A stretch of DNA of 64,000 nucleotides from Vulcanimicrobiota bacterium (GCA_031082125.1 JAVHLM010000003.1:288842-352841), one strand, 5' to 3'. Positions 36,943 through 57,193 are shown, numbered from the stretch's first letter. A program made the numbers and translations. Notes: generated by a model not told the origin, from the sequence alone.

Positions 36943-38190
36943 ATGGGAACCAATGAAGGGACAGGAGTCTCTTTCAGAGGGAAAGTCTTCCGCACTCCTA
37001 AAAAGAACCCGGGCAGCCCGCGGCTCATGGAGCCCGAGGAAGCCCTGGAGCTCATGAAACCCTTTCTCAGGAAAACAGGGCTCACGCGCTTTGCGCAGAT
37101 CACGGGCCTTCGAAGCGTGGGCATCCCGGCGGTGAACGCCATAAGGCCCATAAGCCATAACTCATCGGTAACCCATGGAAAAGGCCTCACCCTGGCCCAT
37201 GCCCTGGCCTCGGCAGCAGGGGAGTCCATAGAGCGCTATTGCTGGTTCAACTGTACCGTTCCCGCCTTCAGCAGCACCTATAATGATCTGAAAGAGCGGC
37301 GCACCGTGATCCCCATGGAAAGGCTGGCCCTTTCCAGGTTCTCGCTCTTCAGGCCTGACCTTCCTGAACAGTGGATGCTCGGCTGGGACCTCATGCATGA
37401 CGAGGAGGTGCCGGTGCCTTTTTCATCGGTGAGCAGGTCCGGCACCTGTTTCACCACGGAGCTCCGCTCCTTCCAGAGCACGTCAAACGGCCTCGCCTAC
37501 GGCGTGGACTTCCTGGAGGCCCTCTCTCAGGCAATCGAGGAAGTGGTGGAGCGGGACGCCGTCGCCTGCATGGATATGGCCCTCCTGTCAGGCCGGATAC
37601 CGCTCTCGAAAGTCCGCGTGGACCTCTCCACCATACCTTTCGAGACCATCGGGGGACTCATCGGAAAAATTGAAGAAGCGGGGCTCCTCCCTGTCCTGCT
37701 GGACTGCACTACCGATACGGCGATCCCCGTTTATCACTGCATGCTCCTCGATGACAAGAAATGCTACGTCGGATCAGGGGCGAGCCTGAGCCCCGAGACC
37801 GCCATGGCAAGGGCCTTCACCGAAGCGGCCCTCGCCCACGCCGTGCTGTTCAGCGGGGTGAGAGACGTTTATTTCAGGGACGAGAGGCTTGCAGGCTCGC
37901 TCGTCGATTTCAGGAAGCAGATGGCAGAATCCCTCGAAGCCCCGGCGGAAAGGAGCGCACGTGGCCTTTCCGCCGAAAGGACCGGGTCCTTTGAGGGGGA
38001 CATCGCCGTGATGAAGGATAAACTCCGGGGTGCCGGCATCGACCAGCTCATCGTGATAGACCTTCCAGAGCCAGGCCTCCCGGGGAGCGTGGTAAAGGTG
38101 ACGGCCCCCGGCCTCGAGGGATACCACCATACTATTGCCTATCGTCCGGGCTCCAGGGCTCTCAGCCGCATGAGCGGAGAGCGGCCCTGA
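36943..38190 (+). CDS. YcaO-domain protein (TfuA-associated type; ATP-dependent backbone amide activation)
   Basis: AGGAGG RBS. N-terminal LTRFAQITGLRSVGIPAVNAIRP and the canonical YcaO ATP-binding region GKGLTLAHALASAAGESIERY. Later TTDTAIPVYHCML (TD..IPV motif). Confidence 0.85.
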   Translation: MGTNEGTGVSFRGKVFRTPKKNPGSPRLMEPEEALELMKPFLRKTGLTRFAQITGLRSVGIPAVNAIRPISHNSSVTHGKGLTLAHALASAAGESIERYCWFNCTVPAFSSTYNDLKERRTVIPMERLALSRFSLFRPDLPEQWMLGWDLMHDEEVPVPFSSVSRSGTCFTTELRSFQSTSNGLAYGVDFLEALSQAIEEVVERDAVACMDMALLSGRIPLSKVRVDLSTIPFETIGGLIGKIEEAGLLPVLLDCTTDTAIPVYHCMLLDDKKCYVGSGASLSPETAMARAFTEAALAHAVLFSGVRDVYFRDERLAGSLVDFRKQMAESLEAPAERSARGLSAERTGSFEGDIAVMKDKLRGAGIDQLIVIDLPEPGLPGSVVKVTAPGLEGYHHTIAYRPGSRALSRMSGERP

Positions 38191-38242
38191 AAGCCCGGGG
38201 AACTGCGAAAGCGGTAAGAATATAAAAGAAAGGAGGGATGAC

Positions 38243-38530
38243 ATGTCTTTGGAAAAAGCGAAAGATGCGCTGAAGAAGATCATGAATGATCCGGACTTCA
38301 GCAGGAAGATGATCAATGTGAAGAGTGATCAGGAAGCGATAGAGCTCCTCTCTTCCCATGGCTTCAAGTTTACCAAGGAAGAATTCGAAAAGGCGAAGCA
38401 TGAGATGAGACAGGCTGTTATCAGCGACGCTGAGCTCGCAGGCGTGGCTGGAGGAAGCGACAGCTCCAACAAAACAGCTTATCCGGTTGCGAACAGTGTG
38501 ACAGTCGGAGCGGCGGCGGCTGCTTTCTAG
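38243..38530 (+). CDS. Nif11-type RiPP precursor peptide with Gly-Gly leader cleavage motif
   Basis: AGGAGG 7 nt before the ATG. Leader MSLEKAKDALKKIMNDPDFSRKMINVKSDQEAIELLSSHGFKFTKEEFEKAKHEM is a Nif11-family leader. ELAGVAGG is the double-glycine motif. Predicted core is SDSSNKTAYPVANSVTVGAAAAAF (24 aa). Confidence 0.8.
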   Translation: MSLEKAKDALKKIMNDPDFSRKMINVKSDQEAIELLSSHGFKFTKEEFEKAKHEMRQAVISDAELAGVAGGSDSSNKTAYPVANSVTVGAAAAAF

Positions 38531-38614
38531 AAGGCCATGAAGGGGCACACCGGCATCAGAGCGGTGTGCCCCTCATGAATTCCCATGAAGCCTTACAGGG
38601 CGGGAGGAATGTTC

Positions 38615-40009
38615 ATGAAGTGCGTGATCTTTACAGGGCCGACCCTCTCAAAGGAGGAAGCCCAGCCCTGGCTTGAAGCCATCTATCTGCCTCCCGCCAG
38701 GCAGGGAGACATAATAAGCGCCATATTCACCCACATGCCCGACATCATAGGCATCATCGACGGCGCGTCCTATCCGGACCTGGAAGTATGGCACCGGGAG
38801 CTGCTCTACGCGCTTGAGAACGGCATTGCCGTGTACGGCTCATCGTCAATCGGGGCGCTCCGGGCAGCGGAGCTGGATATCCATGGCATGCAGGGTGTGG
38901 GAAAGATATATGAGGGCCTCAAGGGCATTGAGGTGAGCGACGATGACGAGGTAATGTGCCACTATGAGTGCAGCGGCTCTCACCGGCGCATCTCCGAGCC
39001 CCTGGCGAACATCAGGGCGACTTTTGAGGCCCTCCACAGGGAGCGGCTGATTGACGGGAAGCTTGTGGCGACCCTTCCCGCCCTGGCGAAGTCGCTGCAT
39101 TACAGGAAGCGCACCTTTCAGGCGATCCTGGAAAAAGCCCGCAACGCCGGGGTGCTTTCCGAAAAGCAGGCCGAAGAGCTTCTCAATCATACGAGGTCCT
39201 GTTACGTGGATCTCCAGAAAGAAGACGCGATTGAACTTCTCAAGGCCGTCAAAAAGGCCATGGAGACCGGCGGCAGGGCACCGTACGGGAAGATTGTTGA
39301 CCGTTCCGACGATCTGATCTTCCACGTGGCGAAGTACAGGGACCGCACCATCTCACGTGACGGCGAAGGGGAAGGGCTCCCCCTGTTCTCGCTGGTGGAT
39401 TACATGGTCCTTACCCACCCTGAAGCCGACGAGCTTGCCGTGAGTGCAAAGAACCGTTTCCTGGCGGGAGTGCTTGCCGACATGCTTCACGTTGAGGCAT
39501 CTGACAGGGAGACAGGGGAGGAAGCCCTGACCTTCAGGACGCGCTATGGCCTCGAGGATCAGGAGCGATTCGGAGAGTGGCTTGCCGAAAACGATCTCGT
39601 CGAGGAAGAGTTCAGGCGGCTGATGGAACAGAACGCGAAGATGAAGGCGCTTCATGACTGGCTGAGGGACAAGCTCGGCCAGAGAAAGTTCACAAGGGTC
39701 ATCACCGATGAGCTCATGCTGACGGACCAGTATTCCCGGTGGGTCGGGAAAGCGCTCCTGGCCGAGAAGCTCTATCAGGAGCGCCGCGAGTACGGCGAAG
39801 AGCTCTTGAGCATCGAGGCTCCGGAGAAGCTGGTAAGGGACCACGTGGCGGGGGCTCCAAGGGAATGGCACAGGATCTTCAGGAAGGTCATGGAAGGGAT
39901 GGAGATCACCGATATCATGCTGAAACACCAGCTTGTCAAGGCCAGGATAGAGAGGGAGACGCTGGAAAAGGCGCTGCTGAGGCATCTCGAGCCGGCGGCC
40001 CACGAGTGA
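38615..40009 (+). CDS. TfuA-like protein (YcaO partner for thioamidation) with ~270-aa C-terminal extension
   Basis: MKCVIFTGPTLSKEEAQ...IYLPPARQGDIISA...IIGIIDGASYPDLEVWHRELLYALENGIAVYGSSSIGALRAAEL matches the TfuA domain. The start is taken at 38615 (GGAGG + 7 nt); an alternative ATG is at 38585. Confidence 0.8.
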   Translation: MKCVIFTGPTLSKEEAQPWLEAIYLPPARQGDIISAIFTHMPDIIGIIDGASYPDLEVWHRELLYALENGIAVYGSSSIGALRAAELDIHGMQGVGKIYEGLKGIEVSDDDEVMCHYECSGSHRRISEPLANIRATFEALHRERLIDGKLVATLPALAKSLHYRKRTFQAILEKARNAGVLSEKQAEELLNHTRSCYVDLQKEDAIELLKAVKKAMETGGRAPYGKIVDRSDDLIFHVAKYRDRTISRDGEGEGLPLFSLVDYMVLTHPEADELAVSAKNRFLAGVLADMLHVEASDRETGEEALTFRTRYGLEDQERFGEWLAENDLVEEEFRRLMEQNAKMKALHDWLRDKLGQRKFTRVITDELMLTDQYSRWVGKALLAEKLYQERREYGEELLSIEAPEKLVRDHVAGAPREWHRIFRKVMEGMEITDIMLKHQLVKARIERETLEKALLRHLEPAAHE

Positions 40010-40024
40010 TGAAAGGAGGCTTTT

Positions 40025-41899
40025 ATGACCCGCAAGCCCGTTGATGTGCTGCTTCTCAACCCGCCCCTCAGCCTGCCGATGCCCTATCTGAGCATCCCTG
40101 TCCTTGCCTCGTACCTCAGGTCGCAGGGAATCAGCGTTGCCGCGTACGACGTGAACGGCGAGTTCTATTACCGCTTCATCACAAGAGAAAACGTACGCAG
40201 AGGGATCTCCCACGCGGCGGAGAGGCTCCAGGTGCTCAACGGCAGGGAAGAGCTGCGCTTCACCGAGATGATTGAGTATATCTCCAGTTACTACTACCTC
40301 ACGGAAGTGGAGAAAAACCTCCCCAAGGTCACGGCCTATCTTTTCCCCTTCTCGGACTGGAAACTGCTCCAGCAGCTTGATATCGACAAGCTTTTGATGA
40401 CCCTCGCAACTCTCCCTTATTTCCCGGAGATCCTGGTCACAAAGCCCCAGTTCATGTACACAAGCCCTTACTATGAGTTCTCATCGAAAGAGATTATGGA
40501 GAGCACAGGCCATGAGAGCTTTTATTCCGCCGCGGTGAGGGAGATCATGGAAGATCTCCTCAGTGAGTATGACCCGAAACTCATCGGTATCTCGCTCGCC
40601 TTCAGCGTACAGGCCCTTCCCGCATTCCTGATGGCGCGGTTCATCAAGGAGATTAGGCCTGAGTGCCACCTCACCATAGGGGGGACCTTCGTCTCATCGT
40701 ACATGCGCAGCCTCAGGGACGACACGCTCTTCCGCCATGTGGACAGCTTCGTGCTTGACGAGGGGGAGTTCCCTCTTGTGCAGCTTTTGAGGGAGTACGC
40801 CGGGGGAAAGCCCGACCTCAGAAAGGTTCAGAACCTCATCTTTGCCGAGAAGGGAGAGGTGATCTATACCGGGCCTGCCGAGCCCTTTGACCTGGAGAAG
40901 TCCTCCGCGCCTGACTACGGGGTTTTCCCCCTTGAGAAGTACACGGTGCCCCGCGAGGACCTCATGATACTCTTCAGGATCGCGAGGGGCTGTCCCTGGC
41001 AGAAGTGCACCTTCTGCAGGACCGACATCCCCCAGTGCAGCAACTTCCAGCAGCCCTCACCGGAGCTGCTCTATGAACAGTTCCGGGAGGTAGTGAAACA
41101 GACGGGGGCGCGCCGCTATTACTTCACCTCCGACAGCGCCGATCCGCTGGTTCTGGAATATTTTGCAAGGAGAATCATTGACGACGGCTTGAAAATAGAC
41201 TGGTACTGCCACACCCGTGTTGACCTGAGGCTTACCAGGGAGCGCTGCGAGCTTTACGGGAAATCAGGGTGCACCGGCATCTATCTCGGTGTTGAGACCT
41301 TCAACGACAGGATACTGAAACTGATGAACAAGGGCATCACTTCTGAGTGTGCAGACCGGGTCCTCCGCCAGGTTGAAGGCGCCCTGGACCTCCGCCTCTA
41401 CATGATGGTGGGCTTCCCCGGCGAGACCAGAGAAGAGGCCCTTGAAGACTTCCGCAGAGTGCAGGAATATCTGAAGCTCGGCCTTATCAAGGACTACCAC
41501 TTCTCACCGGTGCAGATACTGCAGGGCTCCGCCATGTACCGGGACCTCGAAAAATACGGCATCACCAGCCTCATCACCACCGAGGGGGCCGATCTCGAGG
41601 GCGAGGTAAGCAACTTCACAAGCAGCGGGATGTCGCTGCAGCAGGTCATCGAATTTTTCCAGCAGTACGCTGCCGACCGCAGCAAGATCTTCCCGGAGTT
41701 CTTCTCCTCGGAGGGCCGGGAGCACCGGAGCCTCCGGATCAATGGCCGCGAGGTGGAGGCTGCCTTTGACATCGCTCAGATCGTGAGGACGGTGGACAGC
41801 CTCTGGGAGTTCGCGTACCTCACCAAGTCAAGATGGCTGGCCCTCGGCGAGAGCCGCATCGCCCCCCTGAAGCCCATGCTCACCGGGATGAGGCAGTGA
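40025..41899 (+). CDS. B12-binding-domain radical SAM protein, paralog 1 of 3
   Basis: N-terminal B12-binding Rossmann region (VDVLLLNPPLSLPMPYLSIPVLASYLRSQGISVAAYD). Cys cluster ARGCPWQKCTFCRTD has CX4CX2C spacing, checked against the DNA frame. About 620 aa. Confidence 0.8.
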   Translation: MTRKPVDVLLLNPPLSLPMPYLSIPVLASYLRSQGISVAAYDVNGEFYYRFITRENVRRGISHAAERLQVLNGREELRFTEMIEYISSYYYLTEVEKNLPKVTAYLFPFSDWKLLQQLDIDKLLMTLATLPYFPEILVTKPQFMYTSPYYEFSSKEIMESTGHESFYSAAVREIMEDLLSEYDPKLIGISLAFSVQALPAFLMARFIKEIRPECHLTIGGTFVSSYMRSLRDDTLFRHVDSFVLDEGEFPLVQLLREYAGGKPDLRKVQNLIFAEKGEVIYTGPAEPFDLEKSSAPDYGVFPLEKYTVPREDLMILFRIARGCPWQKCTFCRTDIPQCSNFQQPSPELLYEQFREVVKQTGARRYYFTSDSADPLVLEYFARRIIDDGLKIDWYCHTRVDLRLTRERCELYGKSGCTGIYLGVETFNDRILKLMNKGITSECADRVLRQVEGALDLRLYMMVGFPGETREEALEDFRRVQEYLKLGLIKDYHFSPVQILQGSAMYRDLEKYGITSLITTEGADLEGEVSNFTSSGMSLQQVIEFFQQYAADRSKIFPEFFSSEGREHRSLRINGREVEAAFDIAQIVRTVDSLWEFAYLTKSRWLALGESRIAPLKPMLTGMRQ

Positions 41900-43794
41900 T
41901 GAAGAAAGAAGCAGAGGTGCTCCTCATCAATCCCCCCTTCGCAGAGCCGCGGCCCTATATCAGCATCCCCACGCTTGTTTCATATCTTGAGTCCCGGGGC
42001 ATCCGCACCGCGGCATATGATCTCAACTGCGAGTTTTTCTACCGCTTTCTCACAAGGGAGAGGATCCGCAGGGGCATAGAATATGTTTCGGAGAGGTTCC
42101 TCGAGCTTAACGGCAGAGATGAGCTCGCCTTCAGGGAGATGCTTGAATACACGGTATGCTGCGATTTGCTCAGGGACATGGAGGAGCACCTGGGGAAGCT
42201 CACCCTGGCGCTCCTGCCTTTTTCAGATTTCCAGATACTCAGGAGCCTGGAGCTTGAGAGCCTGCTCAGCGGCCTCACGACAGCCCCCTATTTTCCCGAG
42301 CTCCTGATCTCGAAGCCCCAGTTCACTTATGCAAGCCCCTATTTCGAGTACTCCACGGCCGACATCGCGGAGAGCACGGGCCATGAGAGCTTTTATTCCG
42401 CCCTCTTAAGAGAGATAATCGCTGAAATACTCGACGAGTATGAGCCCAGGGTGGCGGGCATCTCAATAGTGCTCACAGAGCAGGTGGTGCCTGCTTTCCT
42501 TGCGGCACGCATCATCAAGGAGTTGAAGCCTGACCTTCATGTAACGGTCGGCGGGCCCTTTGTCTCCACTTATCTGAAGGATCTCAAGAACACGGTGCTC
42601 TTTGATTACGTGGACAGCCTGGTCTTTGACGAGGGTGAGCTCCCCCTCGAGCAGCTCGCCAGGGAGCTCGCGGGCACGAAGCCCGACCTCGGGAGAGTGC
42701 AGAACCTCGCATATCTGAAAAACGGGAGCCTTGTATCCACTCCCCCGGCAGAAACACTTCCTGCCGAGGCATCGCCTCCTCCCGACTACAGGGCCCTTCC
42801 CCTGGACAGGTATCTTGTCTCAGAAAGAAACGCCGAGATGCTCTTCAGGCTCTCGAAGGGATGCTCGTGGCACCGCTGCACCTTCTGCAGGACCGACATC
42901 GCGATGTGCCGGGAATACCGGCAGGCCCCTCATTCCTTCGTCTATGAGAGCCTGCTCGAGGTCATCAGGGACACGGGGTGCGGCAGGTTCCGCTTTACCA
43001 GCGAAGATTCTGACCCGCTGCTCCTTGAGCATATCTCGAAGAGGCTCCTGGAAGACGGCATATCCATAAAGTGGCGATGCCACGCACGCGTTGACGCGCG
43101 GTTCACCAGGGAGCGCGGCGAGCTCTACCGCAAGGCGGGGTGCACGAGCCTTTACCTCGGCGTGGAATCTTTCAGCGACAGGATCCTGCGCATGATGAAC
43201 AAGGGGATTACCTGCGGGCTCATTGACAGGGTCCTCACAGAGCTCGGCGGCGGCGTTCCCGTGCGCCTCTATATGATGGTGGGATTTCCGGGGGAGACTG
43301 AAGAAGAGGCGCTCGCCGGGTACGGGAAGGTGCGCTCCCTTCTTGAGCAAGGCCTTATCGGCGACTATAAGTACTCTATCTTCGAGATGCAGTCAGGATC
43401 AGAAGTGGGGGAGCACCCGGAGCGTTTCGGCCTCAGTGATCTTAGCCGTTACCCGCGCTCGGACCTGCCCTCTGAGATACTGGAGTTCGAAAGCAGAGGG
43501 ATGCCCAGGGAACGGGCTCTCATGCTGGCCGCAGAGTTCGAGAAAAACAGGAGAGAGTGGGATCCCCAGCTGGACAGGGTCTGTGAGCGCTATGAAGAGA
43601 CGGTTGAGCACGTCACTGTGAAGGGAGACCCCGTGGAGGTGAGGTTCAACGTCAAGGAGATACTGGAGAGAATGGCCCATTCCACGGGGCTCTATTTCCT
43701 CCCCCGGATCGGGGAATGGATACGGTACGGGGAACAGCATATCACCCCTGTCAGGGCTGCCCGCCGGGCGTCGCAGCCGCTCAGCACTGTATGA
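41899..43794 (+). CDS. B12-binding-domain radical SAM protein, paralog 2 of 3
   Basis: ATGA overlap with paralog 1. SKGCSWHRCTFCRTD. Collinear similarity to paralog 1 throughout (for example SPYYEFS/SPYFEYS, ESTGHESFYSA in both, YMMVGFPGET in both). Confidence 0.8.
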   Translation: MKKEAEVLLINPPFAEPRPYISIPTLVSYLESRGIRTAAYDLNCEFFYRFLTRERIRRGIEYVSERFLELNGRDELAFREMLEYTVCCDLLRDMEEHLGKLTLALLPFSDFQILRSLELESLLSGLTTAPYFPELLISKPQFTYASPYFEYSTADIAESTGHESFYSALLREIIAEILDEYEPRVAGISIVLTEQVVPAFLAARIIKELKPDLHVTVGGPFVSTYLKDLKNTVLFDYVDSLVFDEGELPLEQLARELAGTKPDLGRVQNLAYLKNGSLVSTPPAETLPAEASPPPDYRALPLDRYLVSERNAEMLFRLSKGCSWHRCTFCRTDIAMCREYRQAPHSFVYESLLEVIRDTGCGRFRFTSEDSDPLLLEHISKRLLEDGISIKWRCHARVDARFTRERGELYRKAGCTSLYLGVESFSDRILRMMNKGITCGLIDRVLTELGGGVPVRLYMMVGFPGETEEEALAGYGKVRSLLEQGLIGDYKYSIFEMQSGSEVGEHPERFGLSDLSRYPRSDLPSEILEFESRGMPRERALMLAAEFEKNRREWDPQLDRVCERYEETVEHVTVKGDPVEVRFNVKEILERMAHSTGLYFLPRIGEWIRYGEQHITPVRAARRASQPLSTV

Positions 43795-45629
43795 AAAAAC
43801 CTGTTGACGTGCTTCTCATCAATCCTCCCTTCTCAAGGCCCGATGAGCCTGTGATAGGCATCGCCACCCTCGCGGCATATCTCAAGACGAGGCAGATCAC
43901 TGTCGAGGCGAAAGATGCAAGCCTCGAGCTCTTTCGCAGAACAGTAACGAATGACTGCATCAATGAAGAGAGAGCCTATGCCGGAGAGAGGTTCACGGAG
44001 CTCAACGGCAGAAGCGTTCTCGACTTCTGCGGGATCTATGAGTACGTGAGGCTCTTTTCCCTGCTTCTGCGCCTGCAGGGGCTTCAGGGCATCTTTGATG
44101 ATGCCGGGGGGGATCTCTGGGAAAAGCTCAGGCATGCAAGCGACACGGTGAGGTCCTCGTTTCTCGAGCTTGCCACGGCATCGTTCTTTCCCCGCTTCAT
44201 ACTCTATGGAGGCCCGCCGACCTTCAGCTGCCACTCTCCTTACCACCACTTCTCCAAAGCCGACATACTCGCTTCCCTTGACGATCCCGCCTGGTACTCC
44301 GAGGCGCTCGAGAATACTATTGCACTGTACTTTGAGGAGATGAGCCCGCGGATCGCCGCAATCTCGGTGTCATACTTTAACCAGATTATTCCGGCCTTTC
44401 AGTGCGCCCGCATCATAAGAAGGATTGCGCCGGGTGTCCATATCAGCATGGGAGGATCGGCGGTCCAGATATTTTTTCGGAAGGTGAGGGATACCGGGCT
44501 CTTCGCCATTGTTGACACCATTGCCACCGGAGACGGCGAGGCGACGCTCGAGGCGCTCTCACGAGAGCTTCAGAGGAAGTCAGCCTCACTGGAGGCGGTG
44601 CCAGGAATCATCTACCTGTCAGGCACGATGGTGAAAAAAAATGACCCGGCGCCGCCCCTTCCTGTTGAAGGCCTCTCCCTCCCCGATTACAGGGCCTTCC
44701 CCCCGGAAGACTTCATGGCCGGCCCCGAGGCAATGCGCTTGCCCCTGAGGCTCTCGAAGGGGTGCTCCTGGGGCAGGTGCTCCTTCTGCCGGACCGAGCT
44801 TTCCATGATAAAAGCGTACCAGGCGCCGACGGCGGGGCGCCTCTTCCCGATGGTCACCGATTTCATCATTGCCACGGGGTGCCGGAAGATCCACTTTGCC
44901 GACGAGTCAATTGATCCCGAAGCCCTGGAGGAGATCTCGAAAGAGCTCATCGGCAGGGAACTCACCCTTGACTGGAACTTTCAGACGAGAATCAACAGAA
45001 AGATCACTGAGAGGCGCTGCAGGCTCTTCAGGGAGGCGGGATGCTCGGCCATCTCCTTCGGTGCAGAATCCTTCAGCGACAGGGTCCTTGGCCTGATGAG
45101 CAAGGGCATCACGGCAGAGCTCATAGAAAAGGTGCTCTATGAGGCCGGGAGCGTTCTGCCTGTCACCATCTTCATGATGGTGGGCTTCCCCGGCGAGACC
45201 GAAGAGGAAGCGAGGGAGAGCTTCAGGAAAGTCCGGGAGCTTGCCCGGGCAGGAGTGATCCGCGATTATATCTACTCCCCCTTCATTATCCACTCAGGCT
45301 CTGCAATGATGGCGGAGCCGGGGCGCTACGGCATCACCGAGCTGCACCACGGTCCTGGAGAAGACCTTTCACCTGATATCATCGATTATCAGTGCACCGG
45401 CATGGCAAGGGAAAAAGCCAGGGAGCTCTTCATCGAGTTTTCCCGGAGCCAGGCAGGCCGCCGGCCCTGGCCGCCGGAGGTCAGGATAGGAAAAAATACC
45501 GTTCCGCGGAGGTTTGACGTGGAAGAAATGATGGGGATCATTGCCCGGGAGACCTCCATGCGCCCTGCGATGCCCCTCTACCGCCTGATCATCACGGCAG
45601 AAGCGTCGCTTGCTCCTGAATCCATATGA
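43791..45629 (+). CDS. B12-binding-domain radical SAM protein, paralog 3 of 3
   Basis: ATGA overlap with paralog 2. SKGCSWGRCSFCRTE. The family block FMMVGFPGETEEEA is shared. Confidence 0.8.
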   Translation: MKKPVDVLLINPPFSRPDEPVIGIATLAAYLKTRQITVEAKDASLELFRRTVTNDCINEERAYAGERFTELNGRSVLDFCGIYEYVRLFSLLLRLQGLQGIFDDAGGDLWEKLRHASDTVRSSFLELATASFFPRFILYGGPPTFSCHSPYHHFSKADILASLDDPAWYSEALENTIALYFEEMSPRIAAISVSYFNQIIPAFQCARIIRRIAPGVHISMGGSAVQIFFRKVRDTGLFAIVDTIATGDGEATLEALSRELQRKSASLEAVPGIIYLSGTMVKKNDPAPPLPVEGLSLPDYRAFPPEDFMAGPEAMRLPLRLSKGCSWGRCSFCRTELSMIKAYQAPTAGRLFPMVTDFIIATGCRKIHFADESIDPEALEEISKELIGRELTLDWNFQTRINRKITERRCRLFREAGCSAISFGAESFSDRVLGLMSKGITAELIEKVLYEAGSVLPVTIFMMVGFPGETEEEARESFRKVRELARAGVIRDYIYSPFIIHSGSAMMAEPGRYGITELHHGPGEDLSPDIIDYQCTGMAREKARELFIEFSRSQAGRRPWPPEVRIGKNTVPRRFDVEEMMGIIARETSMRPAMPLYRLIITAEASLAPESI

Positions 45630-45645
45630 CAGGGAGGAGAAAAAC

Positions 45646-51914: not shown

Positions 51915-51917
51915 GCA

Positions 51918-52742
51918 CTAAAACCTGACTGGAAGCATGAGGGAGAGCGGCGTCACCGTTTTCAAGATAACGGTGGCGGAGCAGGGAGTGACATTGCTGA
52001 TCTTGATGGCGGGCCCCCTGCCTGACGACCACTTGTAGCCGCTCACGGTGGAGGCATCCCTGGTGGGGATGGCGCGGATTCCGATCTTCGGGGTTCCTTT
52101 CAGGCAGATCTCTGCCAGGGTCTCATTATGGACTTTCCTCATCACCTCGGCCCTGGTGACAGGAAACTCCGTGATGCCGGCGACCTTCCCGTAAATGAAG
52201 CCGAAGTCCTGCCTGTTCACCGTCGAGGGGGATATCAGAATGTCCATGCCGGGCGTTACAAGCTTTCCGTTCTCCATTGAAATGAAAATGACGGCATCTA
52301 TTTCTGAAGTTTCGGCCTGAACGGTCCCGAAGGTTTCTTCCTGCCTTATGAAGTTACCCTCGTCAAAAGGGAGCGATACGAGAATTCCCGTCATGGGGCT
52401 TTTGATTTCGAAGGCATCGCCGCCGGAGGAATCGGTCCTTCGCACCCTTGCGAGCACCTGGTCCCTTGTAACCCGATCTCCCTGCTTCACCGGCAGGCAT
52501 TCTATGGTTCCTGCCAGGCCGGCGATGATTCCTTTCATTTCCCCCATGCCCAGCAGCATTCCCTCTCCGCTTATGGTGATGGGAATTCTTCCAAAAATCA
52601 GCCACAGGATCGCGAAGAGTATAAGGACCCCTGAGGCGGCGAGGGCAAGCCACCCCCTGGAGCTTACAATGGTGACGCACTGGTCGAGCTGCTCCGGCGA
52701 GGTGAGCTTCTGTAAGGCCTCTTTCCTGTATATCTCCCTCAT
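51918..52742 (-). CDS. HlyD-family membrane-fusion/secretion protein (bacteriocin export accessory)
   Basis: MREIYRKEALQKLTSPEQLDQ then a single TM helix and a beta-barrel/lipoyl-like periplasmic domain. It lies immediately upstream of and is co-oriented with the two ABC genes. Confidence 0.75.
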   Translation of the reverse strand: MREIYRKEALQKLTSPEQLDQCVTIVSSRGWLALAASGVLILFAILWLIFGRIPITISGEGMLLGMGEMKGIIAGLAGTIECLPVKQGDRVTRDQVLARVRRTDSSGGDAFEIKSPMTGILVSLPFDEGNFIRQEETFGTVQAETSEIDAVIFISMENGKLVTPGMDILISPSTVNRQDFGFIYGKVAGITEFPVTRAEVMRKVHNETLAEICLKGTPKIGIRAIPTRDASTVSGYKWSSGRGPAIKISNVTPCSATVILKTVTPLSLMLPVRF

Positions 52743-52910: not shown

Positions 52911-54398
52911 CTAAAACAGGTCCTTCGCCTCCACAATTTCAATGTCTCCGGTGGTAAGGCCTGGATCATATTTCAGCACCTGCTCATCTACCTTCCGTTC
53001 ATCTTCAGGGAGCGCGCTCTTATACACGGGGCGTGCGTCGATTTTTCCCAGCAGCCGGCCTTTGAGGGTCTCCGGGTCGTCGGTGACAAATACCATCTTT
53101 ACCTTCCGGTCGGCAAGCCTTCTTCCAAGGGCCGAAGATACCTCGCCGGCGGTTATCTTCTTCATCCTCTCCCCGATGGAGGCTATGAAATACGGAATAT
53201 GATAAAAATCGGAATCCATTGAAAATCCAAGTTTCTGGAAGGGGTCATAGTCCCAGAGCTTTGAGTTGTAGGTCACGAAATCCCTCATTATCCTGAAATC
53301 CTTCTCAGAGAGGCCCTTTTCGGCCATCTGATTGAATTGATAGAGCGCATATCTGGCGGCGAAACAGGCATTCTCATTGCTGAGGCTTCTGAGCCATATG
53401 GAGAAGTACTGCCGCAAGCGGGGGATCCTTACGCCGGGCATCTTGTCCTGGCCGCCTTCCCTGAATTTTTCAAGGTAGGAATAATCGCCGTAGTTGAAGC
53501 CGCGGACCTTGCGAAGCTCGCGGCTGAGCAGGCAGTTGAGATAGCGGTGCTGCCCGAAGTGCGCATTGGTAATCATGAGCGGATAGAAATCATCATCGGC
53601 GCGGGTGAAGTCAACGGGGAATCCCAGGGCTACGTCACAGGCGTCGCCATCTTTCCTGATGATCAGCACCCTGTTTCTTTCGATGGGCTCCGGGGTACCT
53701 ATGGCTTTCATTTCAGGCTTTCCCGGCGGAAGCGCGTCGAGATCGCTCATCACCTGCTTTTTTATCATGCCGCATTCACGGCCGGCTACGCCTAGCTCGT
53801 AATTCTCCTTTGTATAGCGCGAGGCGAAAAAAGAGGTCACCTCCCGGACGGTGAGAGCCGCGAGAGATTTCTCCGTGCCTGAATCGGGTGTCCCATAGGG
53901 GTGGCCTCTGTAGATGAAGCGCTCCAGAGCCGCCTGGGCCAGGCTTTCACCATGCCTGGAGATATGGTCGCGGTGGTTCGCGGCCTGGGCCAGGGCACGC
54001 TGAAGCGAGTCTGCGTTTATACGGGGCGAGGTAATTCCTGCAATAAAAACAGGATAGACCTCATTGAACTTTTCCCTGTGGGCTTTGAAGAAAAAAGTGG
54101 TGATCTCTTTGTCAGCCTGCGCGGAGAATGATGCTCCCGATGCCGGCGCCTTTTCGTTGATCGCCCTGTCTATCTGTTCCTCAATCAATCGGGTGGTGAC
54201 ATAATTCAGGCCCTCTTTCCCTTCGGGATCATTGACGGCTCCGGTGCGGAACGAGAGCACGACATACACGACCTCCGAGCCCGGGAGTGCCAGCGTGGTA
54301 ATGCCGGTATTCTTCTCCTTATCAAGCTCAATGGCATTTGTCGGTAAGGTGAGAGCGAGAATAAAGACCAGCACGATGCAGAATCTACTCATGAGCAT
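52911..54398 (-). CDS. M16-family peptidase-like protein lacking the HxxEH motif (probable non-catalytic partner subunit), secreted
   Basis: Signal peptide. Pitrilysin-like two-domain architecture but no HxxEH zinc-binding motif. Overlaps the upstream M16 gene by 14 nt. Confidence 0.6.
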   Translation of the reverse strand: MLMSRFCIVLVFILALTLPTNAIELDKEKNTGITTLALPGSEVVYVVLSFRTGAVNDPEGKEGLNYVTTRLIEEQIDRAINEKAPASGASFSAQADKEITTFFFKAHREKFNEVYPVFIAGITSPRINADSLQRALAQAANHRDHISRHGESLAQAALERFIYRGHPYGTPDSGTEKSLAALTVREVTSFFASRYTKENYELGVAGRECGMIKKQVMSDLDALPPGKPEMKAIGTPEPIERNRVLIIRKDGDACDVALGFPVDFTRADDDFYPLMITNAHFGQHRYLNCLLSRELRKVRGFNYGDYSYLEKFREGGQDKMPGVRIPRLRQYFSIWLRSLSNENACFAARYALYQFNQMAEKGLSEKDFRIMRDFVTYNSKLWDYDPFQKLGFSMDSDFYHIPYFIASIGERMKKITAGEVSSALGRRLADRKVKMVFVTDDPETLKGRLLGKIDARPVYKSALPEDERKVDEQVLKYDPGLTTGDIEIVEAKDLF

Positions 54399-55752
54399 CC
54401 TTCCCTTCGGTGAGCGTCACCACGATCCGGTTCTTTTCCGCAAAGTATTTCTCCGCGGCGGCCTTGATTTCTGAAGGCTTCACCCTGAAGTAGTTGTCAT
54501 AATAGAGATGAGCCGCCCGGGTATTTCCTGAAAGAAAGTACGGTCTCGCGTACGTAAAGGCGATCCTGTTCAGTGAATCAAGGTTCGTGAGGGTTTCGAA
54601 GCGCCTTTTCTCTTTTATCTGCCGCAGTTTTTCCGGATCGCAGGGATTTTTTCTGACGGAGTCAACCTCCTGGAAGAAGATCTCCTTTGCCTTCTCTATA
54701 TCCTTTTTATCTTTCAGCTTCATAATGGTGGTAAACAGGCCCGGGTCGCGGGTAGAGCAGCTGCCCGGGAAATCGACAGTGGTCGCGATCTTCTCCTCGT
54801 ACACCAGGCGCTTGTAAAGGGGGGAGCTTTCCGAGAAGGAGAGCTCCTGGATGAGGTCAATGGCAGGGATCTCGATATTCTGAGGATCATAGCCGGGAAT
54901 ATGGTAGGAGATCGAGAGATACGGAGAGGTCTTTCCGGGATAGAGGATGTCTGCCCTTCTTTCGGCGCCCTGGGGCGGCTCAGGGGGAACCTCGGGAAGA
55001 TCTTTGCCACACTTGAGCGACCCGTAATTCTGCCTTATTATCTCTCTCACTTTCTTCTCATCGATATCTCCCGCCACCACGAGCCGGCAGTGATTCGGCT
55101 TATAATAGTCACGGTAAAACTTCATCACCCTTTCGCGGTTTTCGGGCATTTTCTTCAGGGTATCAAGATGCTCCGGCATATCCCTGTATGGGTGGATGGT
55201 ATAGGCGATCTGATAGAGCTTGCTGTCAAGCATGCTCAGGGGCATACGGTAATGCCCCAGGTACTCCCCCAGCACCGCTCCTGTCTCCGCTCTGTATTGA
55301 TCGTCAGGTATCACGAGGCTGCTGAGCTTGTCCGTCATTATCTCGGTAAGCCTCCTGAAGGCCTCCCGGGGAAATATCCTGTAATAACAGGTATAGTCAC
55401 TGGCGGTATAACCCTGTGAATAGACGCCATACTGTGCATAGTATTCATCAACTTTCTCGACCGGATAGTGCTCCGAGTCGCGAAACATCAGGTGCTCCAT
55501 CAGGTGGGTGTACTCGATCTCCTCAGGCTTCTTTTCAGAGCGCATCCCCACATCGAAGGCCAGGAAGTCCATCATCACCCCGTCATCTCCGCACTTTATG
55601 AGCACGACTTCCATACCGTTATCGAGCCTGTAGGACTCCACCGGGAAAGAGAACAGTTCGGCATAAGCGGGAGCAGTGACAAGCAAGCAGATCAAAAATA
55701 GCAGGCCCCCATGGAGAAATTTCCTCATAGTACCTCCTTTCACTGAACTCAA
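54385..55752 (-). CDS. M16-family zinc peptidase (active subunit, inverted zincin HxxEH)
   Basis: Signal peptide. HLMEHLMF (HxxEH) and downstream E in ...GASAFTSWDYTCYY-like context (YTASDYTCYY). Confidence 0.7.
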   Translation of the reverse strand: MSSVKGGTMRKFLHGGLLFLICLLVTAPAYAELFSFPVESYRLDNGMEVVLIKCGDDGVMMDFLAFDVGMRSEKKPEEIEYTHLMEHLMFRDSEHYPVEKVDEYYAQYGVYSQGYTASDYTCYYRIFPREAFRRLTEIMTDKLSSLVIPDDQYRAETGAVLGEYLGHYRMPLSMLDSKLYQIAYTIHPYRDMPEHLDTLKKMPENRERVMKFYRDYYKPNHCRLVVAGDIDEKKVREIIRQNYGSLKCGKDLPEVPPEPPQGAERRADILYPGKTSPYLSISYHIPGYDPQNIEIPAIDLIQELSFSESSPLYKRLVYEEKIATTVDFPGSCSTRDPGLFTTIMKLKDKKDIEKAKEIFFQEVDSVRKNPCDPEKLRQIKEKRRFETLTNLDSLNRIAFTYARPYFLSGNTRAAHLYYDNYFRVKPSEIKAAAEKYFAEKNRIVVTLTEGKDAHE

Positions 55753-56029
55753 TAGTGTCCCCCATTAAGGGAATCAGGTATTCTTAAGATTCCTTGAACG
55801 CCATGCCTTGTTCAAGAGCCCGCTCACCCTGGATGACAGGAACCTGGGGCCCGGCCTCCGCAGCAAATTATACAACAAATCTCTGAAAAAGTCCAAATTT
55901 TCAAGCCCATCAGGTCATGCCCCTTCACCCGTGGACAATGCCGAAGACCCTCACCGGGGGAAAATATGCCCGTGCCGTAGAATGATTACAGGATGCTTGC
56001 AACCATGCTTCACGGAGAAAGTGCATACC

Positions 56030-57193
56030 ATGAATGTCATATTCCTGTCACCCCATTTTCCGCGGCAATTCCACAATTTCTGCGCAGCCCTGAAACGGAG
56101 AGGGGTCACCGTGCTCGGTATCGGCGACACCCCGTGGGAGGCCCTTGAGCACCCTGTCCGCGCATCGCTGACCGAGTATTACCACGTGCAGAACATGGAG
56201 GATTACGAGCAGCTTTACCGGGCAGTGGCCCTGGTCATTCACCGCTACGGCAGGGTGAGCAGAATCGAGTCGCTCAACGAGCACTGGCTTGTATCCGAGG
56301 CTCGCCTCCGGACCGATTTCAACATCGAGGGGATACAGCTCGACACCATTGATGACATAAAGCTCAAGTCACGGATGAAGACAAAGTACCGCAAGGGCGG
56401 GGTTCACGTGGTTGACGGGAGGAGAGTGGCCGATCTCAGGGAAGCTCTCTCATTCGCGAATGAAACGGGATTCCCCCTTGTGGCGAAGCCCGATAACGGG
56501 GTGGGAGCGGCATATACGTACAAGGTCTCGTCCCCCGGGGAGATCGAGCAGGTCTTTCACGAGCATCCCCATATACCGTATTTCCTGGAAGTCTTCGTGG
56601 ACGGCGATATCTACAGCTTCGACGGCCTCACGGACCAGGAGGGCGTCCCTGTCTTTTATACCTCCCATACCTTCAGCTCGGGCATCATGGAAATCGTGCT
56701 GGAGGATCGCCATGTCTACTACTATTCGCTCCGGGAGATCCCCAAGGACCTGGTTGACGCAGGTCTAAAGACCCTTAAAGCCTTCGACGTGCGCGGCAAG
56801 TTCTTTCACCTTGAGTTTTTCAGAACCCATAAAGAGGGGAAGCTCGTGGGGCTCGAGGTCAACATACGGCCTCCCGGGGGATTCACCACCGATATGTTCA
56901 ACTATGCCAACGATATTGATGTCTACCAGGAATGGGCGAATATGATCGCCTTCAACGAGTTCCGCTCGCCGTACTCACGGAAATACCACTGCTGCTATAT
57001 CGGCAGGAAGATGCAGAAAGGATACGCCCACTCTCATGAAGCCATGAGGGAGAGGTGGGGCGGCTGCCTGCTGGCGGAAGGGGAGATGCCCCCCGTCTTT
57101 GCCCGGGCCATGGGAGATTACTATTACCTGGCCAGGGCCAGTGAGCGGGAAACCATCCTGGAGCTGGCCGGCTATGCCCTCGAGCTGGGATAA
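56030..57193 (+). CDS. ATP-grasp domain protein (carboxylate-amine/peptide ligase-like)
   Basis: FPLVAKPDNGVGAAYTYKVSSPGEIEQVF and EVNIRPPGG resemble ATP-grasp ATP-binding loops. Start moved to the ATG at 56030 (MNVIFLSPHF). Confidence 0.6.
   Translation: MNVIFLSPHFPRQFHNFCAALKRRGVTVLGIGDTPWEALEHPVRASLTEYYHVQNMEDYEQLYRAVALVIHRYGRVSRIESLNEHWLVSEARLRTDFNIEGIQLDTIDDIKLKSRMKTKYRKGGVHVVDGRRVADLREALSFANETGFPLVAKPDNGVGAAYTYKVSSPGEIEQVFHEHPHIPYFLEVFVDGDIYSFDGLTDQEGVPVFYTSHTFSSGIMEIVLEDRHVYYYSLREIPKDLVDAGLKTLKAFDVRGKFFHLEFFRTHKEGKLVGLEVNIRPPGGFTTDMFNYANDIDVYQEWANMIAFNEFRSPYSRKYHCCYIGRKMQKGYAHSHEAMRERWGGCLLAEGEMPPVFARAMGDYYYLARASERETILELAGYALELG

What the first reader, a model, noticed from the sequence alone, without database searches (positions are those of the whole stretch)
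36943..57193. Large, apparently undescribed RiPP locus: YcaO + Nif11 precursor + TfuA + three B12-radical-SAM + E1/RRE, with convergent processing and export operon
Within 20 kb the sequence encodes every element of a RiPP pathway. These are a Nif11-leader precursor with a GG motif, a YcaO enzyme, a TfuA partner, three tandem B12-binding radical SAM paralogs, an E1-like protein carrying a PqqD-like recognition element, a C39-peptidase ABC exporter, a second ABC ATPase, a HlyD protein, two M16 peptidases and an ATP-grasp ligase. In established knowledge, YcaO/TfuA is associated with thioamide installation, as in thioviridamide-type RiPPs and methanogen McrA. Multiple B12-radical-SAM enzymes acting on a Nif11/NHLP-leader precursor occur in proteusin/polytheonamide-type clusters (C-methylation). 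I am not aware of a described cluster with both combined on a 24-aa Val/Ala/Gly-rich core plus an ATP-grasp. The product is predicted to be a heavily backbone- and side-chain-modified exported peptide.
Basis: partly seen in the sequence, partly recalled or inferred. Interest (0 to 1): 0.92.

Follow-up and report, generated by a model that had tools for sequence, protein, structure and literature searches.

The report
Uncharacterised thioamide peptide gene cluster
This is a real gene cluster for a small secreted peptide whose backbone is probably modified with sulfur and further tailored by three radical enzymes and an activating enzyme; clusters of this type have been listed in a genome survey, but no product has been identified.

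Summary
The conserved unit is smaller than claimed. It is a seven-gene operon: YcaO, a Nif11-leader precursor, a long TfuA, three B12-type radical SAM paralogs and an E1-like protein. This operon recurs in the same order in four other distinct operon lineages (six fetched contigs) from Eremiobacterota/Xenobia-type bacteria. More distant versions, with an added glycosyltransferase, occur in Vecturithrix and Desulfatiglans. The NHLP-type exporter adjoins the operon in two operon types. The M16 peptidase pair and the ATP-grasp gene occur only in this window. The ATP-grasp resembles L-amino-acid ligases, not graspetide cyclases.

YcaO and TfuA are closest to the solved thioamide-forming pair, so backbone thioamidation of the Ala-rich core is the best-supported chemistry. 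The E1 is closest to MccB and PaaA. It keeps its ATP-site residues and has an N-terminal PaaA-like leader-binding domain. It probably adenylates a peptide carboxylate, by elimination the invariant C-terminal Phe.

The cluster is not entirely undescribed. A 2021 survey recorded TfuA clusters with Nif11 precursors, B12 radical SAM genes and NHLP transporters. I found no characterised product. Verdict: a new variant of a known kind, of moderate interest.

The parts
36943..38190 (+). YcaO, the ATP-dependent backbone-activating enzyme, of the thioamide-forming type
   Evidence: PF02624, E 4e-58. The best NCBIfam hit is the McrA-glycine thioamidation YcaO, below its cutoff. The best solved relative is the archaeal YcaO MJ1094 (6pe3, E 2e-25), against TruD/LynD at 5e-6 and 1e-4. 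The SxxxExxER and EVVERD motifs are invariant in 13 homologs.
38243..38530 (+). Precursor peptide: a 71-aa Nif11 leader ending AGVAGG and a 24-aa core, SDSSNKTAYPVANSVTVGAAAAAF, with no Cys
   Evidence: TIGR03798, 54.3 bits against a cutoff of 32.3. Translation. A strong AAGGAGG ribosome-binding site lies upstream. Only three homologs were found among 5.8 billion proteins. Orthologous cores keep an Ala-rich tail and an invariant C-terminal A-F.
38536..38577 (+). Stem-loop immediately after the precursor stop codon, a likely partial terminator or transcript stabiliser
   Evidence: Minimum free energy -40 kcal/mol, z -4.3 against shuffles. A hairpin sits at the same position in L002, L003, L004, L005 and L007, even where the sequence differs.
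38585..40009 (+). Long TfuA (NCBI start at 38615, 464 aa): an N-terminal TfuA fold plus a conserved all-helical C-terminal domain of about 230 aa with unknown role
40025..41899 (+). Class-B (cobalamin-type) radical SAM paralog 1
   Evidence: Radical_SAM, E 2e-17. The B12-binding hit is below cutoff. PhpK and rSAM_ocin_1 match across both domains. The motif is Cx4Cx2C. The nearest solved proteins are CysS (9e-7) and OxsB (1e-4).
41833..43794 (+). Class-B radical SAM paralog 2 (likely start 41899, a TGATG overlap with paralog 1)
   Evidence: It is 47% identical to paralog 1.
43716..45629 (+). Class-B radical SAM paralog 3 (likely start 43791, an ATGA overlap with paralog 2)
   Evidence: It is 34-38% identical to paralogs 1 and 2. 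Each paralog has its own ortholog in the related loci.
45610..46746 (+). E1/ThiF-like enzyme with an N-terminal leader-binding (RRE-like) domain, MccB/PaaA type
   Evidence: PF00899, E 6e-39. The best solved relatives are MccB (E 3e-23) and PaaA (E 3e-15, aligned from residue 22), ahead of ThiF (4e-13) and MoeB (9e-12). GxGxxG, the MccB-D214-equivalent Asp (except L008, which has Glu) and both CxxC pairs are conserved in six orthologs. The N-terminal domain alone aligns colinearly with the PaaA N-terminus, weakly (E 0.14).
46808..49711 (-). NHLP-type bacteriocin export ABC permease/ATPase (ABC2)
   Evidence: TIGR03797, 824 bits against a cutoff of 709.
49716..51914 (-). NHLP-type export ABC transporter with a C39 peptidase domain (ABC1), which cleaves after GG
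   Evidence: TIGR03796, 1014 bits against a cutoff of 853. Peptidase_C39, E 4e-34. The N-terminal sequence containing the conserved Cys and His is shown.
51918..52742 (-). NHLP-system HlyD-type adaptor, short form (274 aa)
   Evidence: TIGR03794, 218 bits against a cutoff of 156. Only the two ends of the 421-position model match.
52911..54398 (-). M16 peptidase subunit without HxxEH, with a signal-peptide-like N-terminus. It is window-specific, so membership of the pathway is uncertain.
   Evidence: Pfam M16 and M16_C. No HxxEH motif, and a hydrophobic N-terminus. Absent from L001 to L007.
54385..55752 (-). M16 peptidase subunit with HLMEH, with a signal-peptide-like N-terminus. It overlaps the partner gene by 14 bp. 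It is window-specific, so membership is uncertain.
   Evidence: An M16 pair also lies near a YcaO-TfuA pair in Micromonospora L081.
55808..57193 (+). ATP-grasp protein (likely start 56030) of the L-amino-acid-ligase type. Probably not part of the conserved pathway.
   Evidence: ATP-grasp_4, 27 bits, equal to the cutoff. The best solved relatives are an L-amino acid ligase (4wd3, E 7e-10) and BacD. Absent from all related loci.

Best explanation
This is a functional biosynthetic gene cluster for a ribosomally made, post-translationally modified, secreted peptide. It belongs to the YcaO/TfuA (thioamidated) RiPPs.

Proposed course:
1. The 95-aa precursor is translated. A hairpin after its gene probably raises precursor transcript levels relative to the enzyme genes.
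2. YcaO activates backbone amide oxygens with ATP. TfuA supplies a sulfide equivalent, presumably from a thiocarboxylated carrier encoded elsewhere. Together they convert one or more amides in the Ala-rich C-terminal half of the core to thioamides.
3. Three distinct cobalamin-type radical SAM enzymes each perform a different radical modification. C-methylation of unactivated carbons is the most likely.
4. The MccB/PaaA-like E1 binds the leader through its N-terminal domain. It adenylates a peptide carboxylate, by elimination the invariant C-terminal Phe, for capture by a nucleophile that cannot yet be named.
5. The C39 ABC transporter, with ABC2 and the HlyD adaptor, cuts after AGVAGG and exports the 24-residue product.

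Shown here: gene identities, operon conservation, family memberships of the exporter and leader, and the intact ATP sites of YcaO and E1. Inferred: every chemical step and its order.
For: -
- The seven-gene order is conserved in L001 to L006, with YcaO 59-77%, TfuA about 52-79% and E1 53-76% identical. A more distant version occurs in L007, L008, L010, L011 and L013.
- Gene junctions overlap (TGATG, ATGA), which points to translational coupling.
- YcaO is closest to the solved archaeal YcaO MJ1094 (thioamide-forming by my own knowledge of the literature) and TfuA to the solved TfuA.
- TfuA's role as hydrolase of a thiocarboxylated ThiS-type carrier is stated in PMC13063428 and PMC8153245.
- The core has no Cys, which rules out thiazolines.
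- Thioamitides carry their four thioamides in an Ala-containing tail (PMC8153245).
- Each radical SAM paralog has its own ortholog in the related loci, which argues for three separate roles.
- The E1 matches MccB and PaaA better than ThiF or MoeB and keeps its catalytic residues.
- Cores linked to this E1 all end in A-F. The Vecturithrix cores have no Asp or Glu, so the C-terminus is the only shared carboxylate.
- The exporter proteins pass curated equivalog cutoffs. There is a single Nif11 precursor in the window.
Against: - No product has been observed for any member of the family.
- YcaO and TfuA score below the curated McrA-type cutoffs.
- The radical SAM genes fail every curated family cutoff. 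They carry the Cx4Cx2C motif known from OxsB, which is not a methylase.
- Ala-rich cores ending in AAF also occur in a Nostoc locus with no E1 within 10 kb. The C-terminal motif is therefore not specific to the E1.
- One radical-SAM-containing relative (L013) has no E1.
- One E1 ortholog (L008) has lost the Arg of the NLxRQ motif.
- No sulfur-carrier gene was found in the window.
- In L001 the TfuA and first radical SAM genes are split.
Confidence: 0.8

Rival explanations
1. The E1 is the sulfur-supply enzyme. It adenylates a ThiS/MoaD-type carrier protein, and the resulting thiocarboxylate is hydrolysed by TfuA to feed YcaO. Under this reading the E1 does not touch the peptide.
For: TfuA uses thiocarboxylated ThiS-type carriers (PMC13063428 and PMC8153245). 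Many related YcaO-TfuA loci carry a ThiF-family gene next door. Archaeal TfuA clusters carry MoaD/ThiS plus MoeB/ThiF (supplement of PMC8120280).
Against: The neighbouring E1s in those other loci are MoeZ-type fusions with a rhodanese domain. They score only 45-62 bits against this E1. This E1 has no rhodanese domain. It has an N-terminal PaaA-like domain instead, and it matches MccB (86 bits) better than ThiF or MoeB. No GG-ending carrier ORF exists in the window or in the orthologous operons.
Confidence: 0.15
2. The E1 is only a docking scaffold. Its N-terminal domain presents the leader to YcaO or to the radical SAM enzymes, as in azoline-forming systems, and its adenylation domain is not used.
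For: This is the established role of ThiF-like partners of YcaO cyclodehydratases. It is also why YcaO-containing clusters were excluded from a ThiF genome-mining study (PMC12596934 and PMC12150305). No other protein in the operon has a recognisable leader-binding domain. The L008 ortholog has lost one ATP-site Arg.
Against: The Gly-rich loop, the catalytic Asp (Glu in the most distant ortholog) and both zinc CxxC pairs are kept across orthologs down to 45% identity. Related YcaO-TfuA loci process Nif11 precursors with no such E1. A radical-SAM-bearing relative lacks it. The match to the SagC-type docking family is negligible: 25 bits against a cutoff of 188.
Confidence: 0.2
3. YcaO and the E1 act as an azoline-forming cyclodehydratase on Ser/Thr of the core, making an oxazoline-containing linear peptide. 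TfuA would be accessory or inactive.
For: YcaO occurs together with an E1-like protein. Ser and Thr are present in every core. There is a weak hit to the TOMM SagD model (98 bits against a cutoff of 219).
Against: A TfuA with a confidently modelled canonical fold is encoded next to the precursor gene. YcaO is much closer to MJ1094 than to TruD or LynD. The core has no Cys and the cluster has no FMN dehydrogenase. The E1 is not SagC-like.
Confidence: 0.05
4. The M16 pair and the ATP-grasp ligase are integral steps, namely extracytoplasmic trimming and amino-acid addition or macrocyclisation.
For: The M16 genes lie on the same strand, directly upstream of the HlyD-ABC genes. One subunit keeps HLMEH, and both have signal-peptide-like N-termini. 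An M16 pair also lies near a YcaO-TfuA pair in Micromonospora. The ATP-grasp gene is divergently adjacent.
Against: Neither gene set is present in any of the orthologous operons, including L004, which has the exporter next door. The ATP-grasp hit sits at the Pfam cutoff, and the nearest solved relatives are free-amino-acid ligases.
Confidence: 0.25

Closest known systems
TfuA/YcaO clusters with Nif11-like precursors found by genome mining (Malit et al. 2021, PMC8120280; Desulforegula conservatrix example)
   Same: Both have a YcaO-TfuA pair, a Nif11-type leader with GG, B12-domain radical SAM genes and NHLP-specific transporters. A MoeB/ThiF-type gene is also listed in that paper's Fig. 4 legend. 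My own related loci L007 and L008 show that architecture.
   Different: The window's version lacks the family-4 glycosyltransferase. It has exactly three radical SAM paralogs in fixed order, comes from a different phylum, and has a different core. The published entry is only a survey listing, with no product or enzymology.
Thioamitides (thioviridamide, thiostreptamide S4)
   Same: Both use YcaO/TfuA-dependent thioamidation, iterative in thioamitides, of an Ala-containing stretch of a ribosomal peptide (PMC8153245).
   Different: Thioamitides have a C-terminal Cys and an AviMeCys macrocycle, made by a decarboxylase and a HopA1/phosphotransferase pair, and they carry His methylation and hydroxylation. 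Here there is no Cys, none of those genes, a Nif11 leader, radical SAM genes and an E1.
McrA modification in methanogens (thioglycine by YcaO/TfuA; C-methyl-Arg and C-methyl-Gln by B12 radical SAM enzymes)
   Same: Both combine a thioamide-forming YcaO/TfuA with cobalamin radical SAM enzymes. The closest curated and solved relatives of this YcaO and TfuA are the archaeal ones.
   Different: McrA is a folded enzyme subunit, not a leader-bearing peptide. Scores are below the equivalog cutoffs. Here the genes form one operon with a dedicated precursor and exporter.
ThiF-like RiPP enzymes MccB, PaaA, GrcB and IndF
   Same: The architecture is the same: an N-terminal leader-binding domain plus a ThiF adenylation domain with an intact ATP site and a zinc site. 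MccB and PaaA are the best solved matches. IndF and MccB act on the C-terminal carboxylate.
   Different: None of these is known to work alongside YcaO/TfuA or radical SAM methylases. The fate of the adenylate here is unknown. Identity to MccB is low.
Proteusins (polytheonamide) and bottromycin
   Same: Both involve several B12 radical SAM enzymes acting on a ribosomal peptide rich in small hydrophobic residues. Bottromycin also has three such enzymes together with YcaO proteins (PMC9204698).
   Different: Proteusins use an NHLP leader and a radical SAM epimerase. Bottromycin uses a follower peptide, two TfuA-independent YcaOs and a Cys. The radical SAM genes here fail the cutoff of the curated RiPP C-methyltransferase model TIGR03975 (92-120 bits against 282).

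Membership tests
YcaO/TfuA-dependent thioamidated RiPPs | A YcaO-domain protein with intact ATP/Mg-binding motifs | tested here: met
   PF02624, E 4e-58. SxxxExxER and ExxERD are invariant across 13 homologs.
YcaO/TfuA-dependent thioamidated RiPPs | A TfuA partner encoded next to YcaO | tested here: met
YcaO/TfuA-dependent thioamidated RiPPs | A dedicated precursor peptide in the cluster | tested here: met
   TIGR03798 above its cutoff. The position is conserved in all orthologous loci.
YcaO/TfuA-dependent thioamidated RiPPs | A thioamide in the mature product | not testable with these tools
   This needs mass spectrometry of the modified peptide.
Thioamitides | A C-terminal Cys with Ser/Thr for an AviCys/AviMeCys ring, plus Cys decarboxylase and HopA1/phosphotransferase genes | tested here: not met
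   The core has no Cys. None of the 13 cluster proteins has such domains.
Proteusins | A nitrile-hydratase-like (NHLP) leader | tested here: not met
   The leader matches Nif11 (PF07862, TIGR03798) only.
Proteusins | A radical SAM epimerase and TIGR03975-type C-methyltransferases | tested here: not met
   All three radical SAM proteins are class-B type. Their TIGR03975 scores are 92-120 bits against a cutoff of 282. There is no other radical SAM gene in the cluster.
Linear azol(in)e peptides / TOMM | A SagC/ocin-ThiF-type docking partner and an FMN dehydrogenase, with a Cys/Ser/Thr-rich core | tested here: not met
   TIGR03603 scores 25 bits against a cutoff of 188. There is no dehydrogenase and no Cys.
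ThiF-like RiPP-modifying enzymes (MccB/PaaA/IndF type) | An N-terminal leader-binding domain fused to a ThiF adenylation domain | tested here: inconclusive
   The ThiF domain is clear. The full-length match to PaaA starts at residue 22. The N-terminal domain alone aligns colinearly with PaaA residues 4-90, but only at E 0.14. A single-sequence structure model failed.
ThiF-like RiPP-modifying enzymes (MccB/PaaA/IndF type) | Conserved nucleotide-binding loop, catalytic Asp and zinc-binding Cys pairs | tested here: met
   The alignment to MccB includes the D214 equivalent. The residues are conserved in six orthologs, except for one Arg lost and a Glu in place of that Asp in L008.
ThiF-like RiPP-modifying enzymes (MccB/PaaA/IndF type) | ATP-dependent adenylation of a carboxylate of the precursor peptide | not testable with these tools
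   This needs an enzyme assay.
NHLP/Nif11 bacteriocin export system | A C39-ABC, a second ABC and a HlyD-type adaptor of the NHLM_micro families, with a GG-leader substrate | tested here: met
   TIGR03796, TIGR03797 and TIGR03794 are all above their equivalog cutoffs. The leader ends in GG.
Graspetides | An ATP-grasp macrocyclase conserved with the precursor | tested here: not met
   The ATP-grasp is absent from all related loci. Its nearest solved relatives are an L-amino acid ligase and BacD.

The most novel reading that the evidence does not exclude
The E1 is catalytically active on the peptide. It adenylates the invariant C-terminal Phe carboxylate of a multiply thioamidated, radical-SAM-tailored Ala-rich peptide, producing a C-terminally capped or cyclised product (macrocycle, thioacid, amide or nucleotide conjugate). 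This would be the first pathway to join thioamide-forming YcaO/TfuA chemistry, cobalamin radical SAM chemistry and active ThiF-like chemistry. It is a combination that ThiF genome mining has deliberately filtered out.
Probability: 0.3. Interest if true: 0.75.

Novelty: new variant of a known kind. Interest (0 to 1): 0.55.

Why it matters
Natural peptides with several backbone thioamides are rare, and the known ones (thioamitides) are potent. A compact seven-gene operon that adds three radical enzymes and an apparently active E1 to the thioamide machinery would give access to a new peptide scaffold. It would also test whether ThiF-like partners of YcaO enzymes are always passive. The comparison further shows that this operon is one branch of a large, uncharacterised group. 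That group comprises YcaO plus long-TfuA loci whose Nif11 precursors have hydrophobic Ala/Gly-rich cores. It spans many phyla, including Azospirillum, Synergistaceae, Nostoc, myxobacteria and Chlamydiae. Solving one member would inform hundreds of clusters.

Tried and rejected
- The 85-aa ORF upstream of YcaO (36699-36956) was tested as a possible sulfur carrier. It has no family hits and no GG end, so I rejected it.
- A search for ThiS/MoaD-like GG-ending ORFs in the window and in 11 related loci found nothing credible.
- The single-sequence AlphaFold model of the E1 was unusable (pLDDT 31).
- The promoter and terminator consensus scan gave counts equal to the shuffled expectation.
- Rfam and tRNA scans of the window found nothing, so there is no cobalamin or SAM riboswitch.
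- The metagenome scan with the E1 alignment added only contigs of the same operon family.
- PDB sequence searches for the radical SAM proteins gave only weak hits.
- The radical SAM/SPASM gene at 61896-63200 was considered as a possible extra maturase. It is an anaerobic sulfatase maturase sitting next to a sulfatase, so I rejected it.
- Literature searches found no characterised product for this architecture.

Full report
**Observation**

- YcaO lies at 36943-38190 (PF02624, E 4e-58).
- The Nif11-leader precursor lies at 38243-38530 (TIGR03798, 54.3 bits against a cutoff of 32.3).
- TfuA lies at 38585-40009 (PF07812, E 5e-35).
- The three radical SAM paralogs lie at 40025-45629. Their B12-domain hits are sub-threshold, but long matches to class-B families cover both domains.
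- The ThiF/E1 protein lies at 45610-46746 (E 6e-39).
- On the opposite strand lie the NHLP-type ABC2, the C39-ABC1 and the HlyD adaptor. All three score above curated equivalog cutoffs.
- Next come two M16 proteins and a marginal ATP-grasp.

The precursor reads ...AGVAGG|SDSSNKTAYPVANSVTVGAAAAAF. It is the only Nif11-like ORF in the 64-kb window. The 85-aa ORF upstream of YcaO has no hits and is probably not a gene. The exact precursor and YcaO sequences are on record from an NCBI metagenome-assembled genome labelled Candidatus Eremiobacteraeota.

**What is conserved**

The precursor has only three homologs among 5.8 billion proteins. I looked up the contigs that encode the close precursor and YcaO homologs. 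The same seven genes appear in the same order in six fetched contigs, which represent four further operon lineages:
- L001 and L002;
- L003, from Candidatus Xenobiia bacterium LiM19;
- L004;
- L005 and L006.

The order is YcaO, precursor, a TfuA of about 465 aa, three class-B radical SAM genes, then the E1. Each radical SAM paralog has its own best-matching ortholog in these loci, which points to three separate roles. Within the window, paralogs 1/2 and 2/3 overlap by TGATG and ATGA.

The exporter adjoins the operon only in the window (convergent) and in L004 (divergent). The M16 pair and the ATP-grasp are found in none of the related loci. The conserved pathway is therefore seven genes plus a variably located exporter.

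A scan of species-representative genomes with a YcaO alignment found a more distant branch, at 40-47% YcaO identity. The loci are L007 (Candidatus Vecturithrix), L008 (Desulfatiglans), L010, L011 and L013 (Omnitrophota). They carry YcaO, long TfuA, a family-4 glycosyltransferase and two to four of the same radical SAM type. Where the contig extends far enough (L007, L008), the same E1 is present. L007 also has Nif11 precursors and an NHLP exporter.

**The cores**

The orthologous cores are:
- SDSSNKTAYPVANSVTVGAAAAAF
- DNHTSAAVPVAESITVGAAASAF
- DNAHSAAVPIAESITVGAAAMAF
- GDDTTTAAAFSAAAGATAAASAF

The Vecturithrix cores are KSGTWVGVGTGAASGAAAAAAGAAAAAAF and a close variant. None contains Cys. All have an Ala-rich tail and end in A-F.

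Nearly every locus in the wider YcaO plus long-TfuA group has one or more Nif11 precursors with hydrophobic Ala/Gly-rich cores.

**Chemistry of YcaO and TfuA**

The best solved relative of this YcaO is MJ1094 from Methanocaldococcus (E 2e-25). From my own knowledge of the literature, MJ1094 is a thioamide-forming enzyme. The azoline-forming TruD and LynD match at only 5e-6 and 1e-4. The ATP-binding motifs are invariant.

Published work states that TfuA hydrolyses a thiocarboxylated ThiS-type carrier to supply sulfide equivalents to YcaO (PMC13063428 and PMC8153245). Thioamitides carry four thioamides in an Ala-containing tail. Thioamidation of the Ala-rich part of the core is therefore the best-supported step. 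It remains an inference.

The C-terminal half of this TfuA, about 230 residues, is predicted to be all-helical. It is conserved in all 79 related genome loci and in more than 440 database proteins. It matches no Pfam family or solved structure. Its role is unknown.

**Radical SAM paralogs**

The three paralogs are 34-47% identical to each other. All three, together with 23 orthologs and paralogs in related loci, carry CxWxxCxFC. This is a Cx4Cx2C motif rather than the usual Cx3Cx2C. The variant is documented in OxsB, a cobalamin radical SAM enzyme that is not a methylase (PMC9204698).

Their best curated matches are PhpK and TIGR03975, the RiPP C-methyltransferase model. All scores are far below the cutoffs. 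The nearest solved proteins are CysS and OxsB, both weakly matched. C-methylation is the most likely function by analogy with polytheonamide and bottromycin, but family membership does not establish it.

**The E1**

The best solved relatives are MccB (E 3e-23) and PaaA (E 3e-15, aligned from residue 22). ThiF (4e-13) and MoeB (9e-12) rank lower.

The following features are conserved in six orthologs, down to 45% identity:
- the Gly-rich loop;
- the NLxRQ motif;
- the Lys;
- the Asp equivalent to MccB D214;
- both CxxC pairs.

The most distant ortholog, L008, is an exception on two points: it has lost the Arg and has Glu in place of that Asp.

The N-terminal 100 residues are conserved. On their own they align colinearly with the PaaA N-terminal domain, but only weakly (E 0.14). 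The match to the SagC-type docking family is negligible.

ThiF-like RiPP enzymes adenylate a peptide carboxylate. IndF and MccB act on the C-terminus (PMC12596934 and PMC12150305). That genome-mining study excluded clusters containing YcaO, on the assumption that the ThiF there only docks.

The Vecturithrix cores contain no Asp or Glu. The only carboxylate shared by all cores linked to this E1 is therefore the C-terminal Phe.

Three caveats apply:
- A Nostoc locus without this E1 also has a core ending in AAAF.
- L013 has the radical SAM genes but no E1.
- No nucleophile sits at a conserved position in the cores.

Two rival roles remain. The first is activation of a sulfur carrier for TfuA. 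It is weakened because neighbouring E1s in other YcaO-TfuA loci are rhodanese-fused, MoeZ-type proteins. Those are only distantly related to this E1 (45-62 bits). In addition, no GG-ending carrier ORF is present. The second is pure docking, which is weakened by the conserved ATP site.

**Export and accessory genes**

ABC1 has a C39 domain, and its N-terminal sequence contains the conserved Cys and His. With ABC2 and HlyD it meets the NHLP export-system definitions. Cleavage after AGVAGG and export are therefore well supported.

The HlyD protein is short (274 aa) and matches only the two ends of its model.

One M16 subunit keeps HLMEH and the other lacks it. Both have signal-peptide-like N-termini. 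If they act on the peptide at all, they act outside the cytoplasm.

The ATP-grasp probably starts at 56030. It is closest to an L-amino acid ligase and to BacD.

Downstream genes are unrelated to the cluster: a cell-wall amidase, a lipase-like protein, a glycerol dehydrogenase, and an anaerobic sulfatase maturase next to a sulfatase.

A strong hairpin lies directly after the precursor stop codon (38536-38577, -40 kcal/mol, z -4.3). A hairpin recurs at the same position in the related loci even where the sequence differs. From my own knowledge, such hairpins are common after RiPP precursor genes and are thought to raise precursor transcript levels.

**Comparison with what is known**

A 2021 survey of TfuA clusters (PMC8120280) reported Desulforegula clusters with Nif11-like precursors, B12-domain radical SAM genes and NHLP-specific transporters. 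The legend of the figure that includes this panel (Fig. 4) lists a MoeB-type gene and a family-4 glycosyltransferase. That matches my distant branch (L007, L008). The architecture has therefore been recorded, but only as a listing.

Four literature searches found no characterised product. The library does not hold most subscription-journal papers, so a report may have been missed.

The cluster fails the defining features of thioamitides, proteusins, azoline peptides, bottromycin and graspetides. The membership table gives the details.

**Verdict**

This is a genuine, intact RiPP cluster of the thioamidated class. It is a glycosyltransferase-free variant, from Eremiobacterota-type bacteria, of an architecture already noted in a genome survey. 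The product is unknown.

The most interesting open point is whether the MccB/PaaA-like E1 is catalytically active alongside YcaO/TfuA.

The class is known, similar clusters are already catalogued, and part of the claimed pathway is not conserved.

Noticed in passing
window 38536-38577; L002 2163-2247; L003 11586-11685; L004 11611-11750; L005 11504-11604; L007 8944-9060 and 9854-9994: A strong stem-loop lies directly after the precursor stop codon in every related locus. Its position is conserved even where the sequence is not. In L007 it is followed by a short U run.
   Followed up: partly
window 40025-45629, and 23 radical SAM ORFs in L003-L014: All the class-B radical SAM proteins of this family carry CxWxxCxFC. 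This is a Cx4Cx2C cluster motif rather than Cx3Cx2C, and it is otherwise documented in the non-methylase OxsB.
   Followed up: partly
window 39287-40009 (TfuA residues about 235-474): A conserved all-helical C-terminal domain of about 230 aa on TfuA. It is present in all 79 related genome loci and in more than 440 database proteins. It has no Pfam family and no solved homolog.
   Followed up: partly
L044 3402-4592, L062 12943-14133, L021 5015-6343, L022 8650-9720, L025 8661-9788, L027 12695-13735, L034 7417-8610, L085 16900-18108: Many other YcaO plus long-TfuA loci (Azospirillum, Gemmatimonadota, Chlamydiae, Verrucomicrobia) have an adjacent MoeZ-type E1 fused to a rhodanese domain. This fits sulfur-carrier activation for TfuA. 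It is a different kind of E1 from the one in the window.
   Followed up: partly
L049, L055, L058, L062, L066, L068, L076, L078, L083 (upstream of YcaO); L033, L035, L050, L056, L061: Azospirillum loci encode Nif11-leader proteins with very long Ala-rich tandem-repeat regions, hundreds of residues long. Synergistaceae loci carry arrays of up to about ten Nif11 precursors with hydrophobic, membrane-helix-like cores.
   Followed up: no
L007 12593-14602; L008 2897-4855 and 6689-7213; L012 12724-15219; L013 12646-14628 and 16340-16903: The wider family adds a family-4 glycosyltransferase, sometimes with TPR repeats. Some members also have an APS kinase or a sulfotransferase. This suggests glycosylated and possibly sulfated products in those relatives.
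   Followed up: partly
window 51918-52742: The NHLP-type HlyD adaptor is only 274 aa and matches just the N- and C-terminal parts of the 421-position model. The central helical hairpin seems to be missing. L004 has a 339-aa version.
   Followed up: no
L001 10371-11772 and 11786-13662: In this relative the TfuA gene and the first radical SAM gene are each split into two ORFs. This could be decay of the cluster or assembly error. The near-identical L002 has them intact.
   Followed up: no
L081 3741-6548: An M16 peptidase pair also lies a few kb upstream of a YcaO-TfuA pair in Micromonospora sonneratiae. M16 pairs may therefore be recurrent, optional accessories of such clusters.
   Followed up: no
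window 61896-64000 (-): An anaerobic sulfatase-maturating radical SAM/SPASM enzyme (TIGR03942, 484 bits against a cutoff of 349) lies next to a sulfatase fragment at the window edge. It is unrelated to the peptide cluster.
   Followed up: yes
window 31084-34509 (+): A large TPR-repeat protein with a C-terminal CHAT protease domain lies upstream of the housekeeping GTPase BipA. It is not part of the cluster.
   Followed up: no
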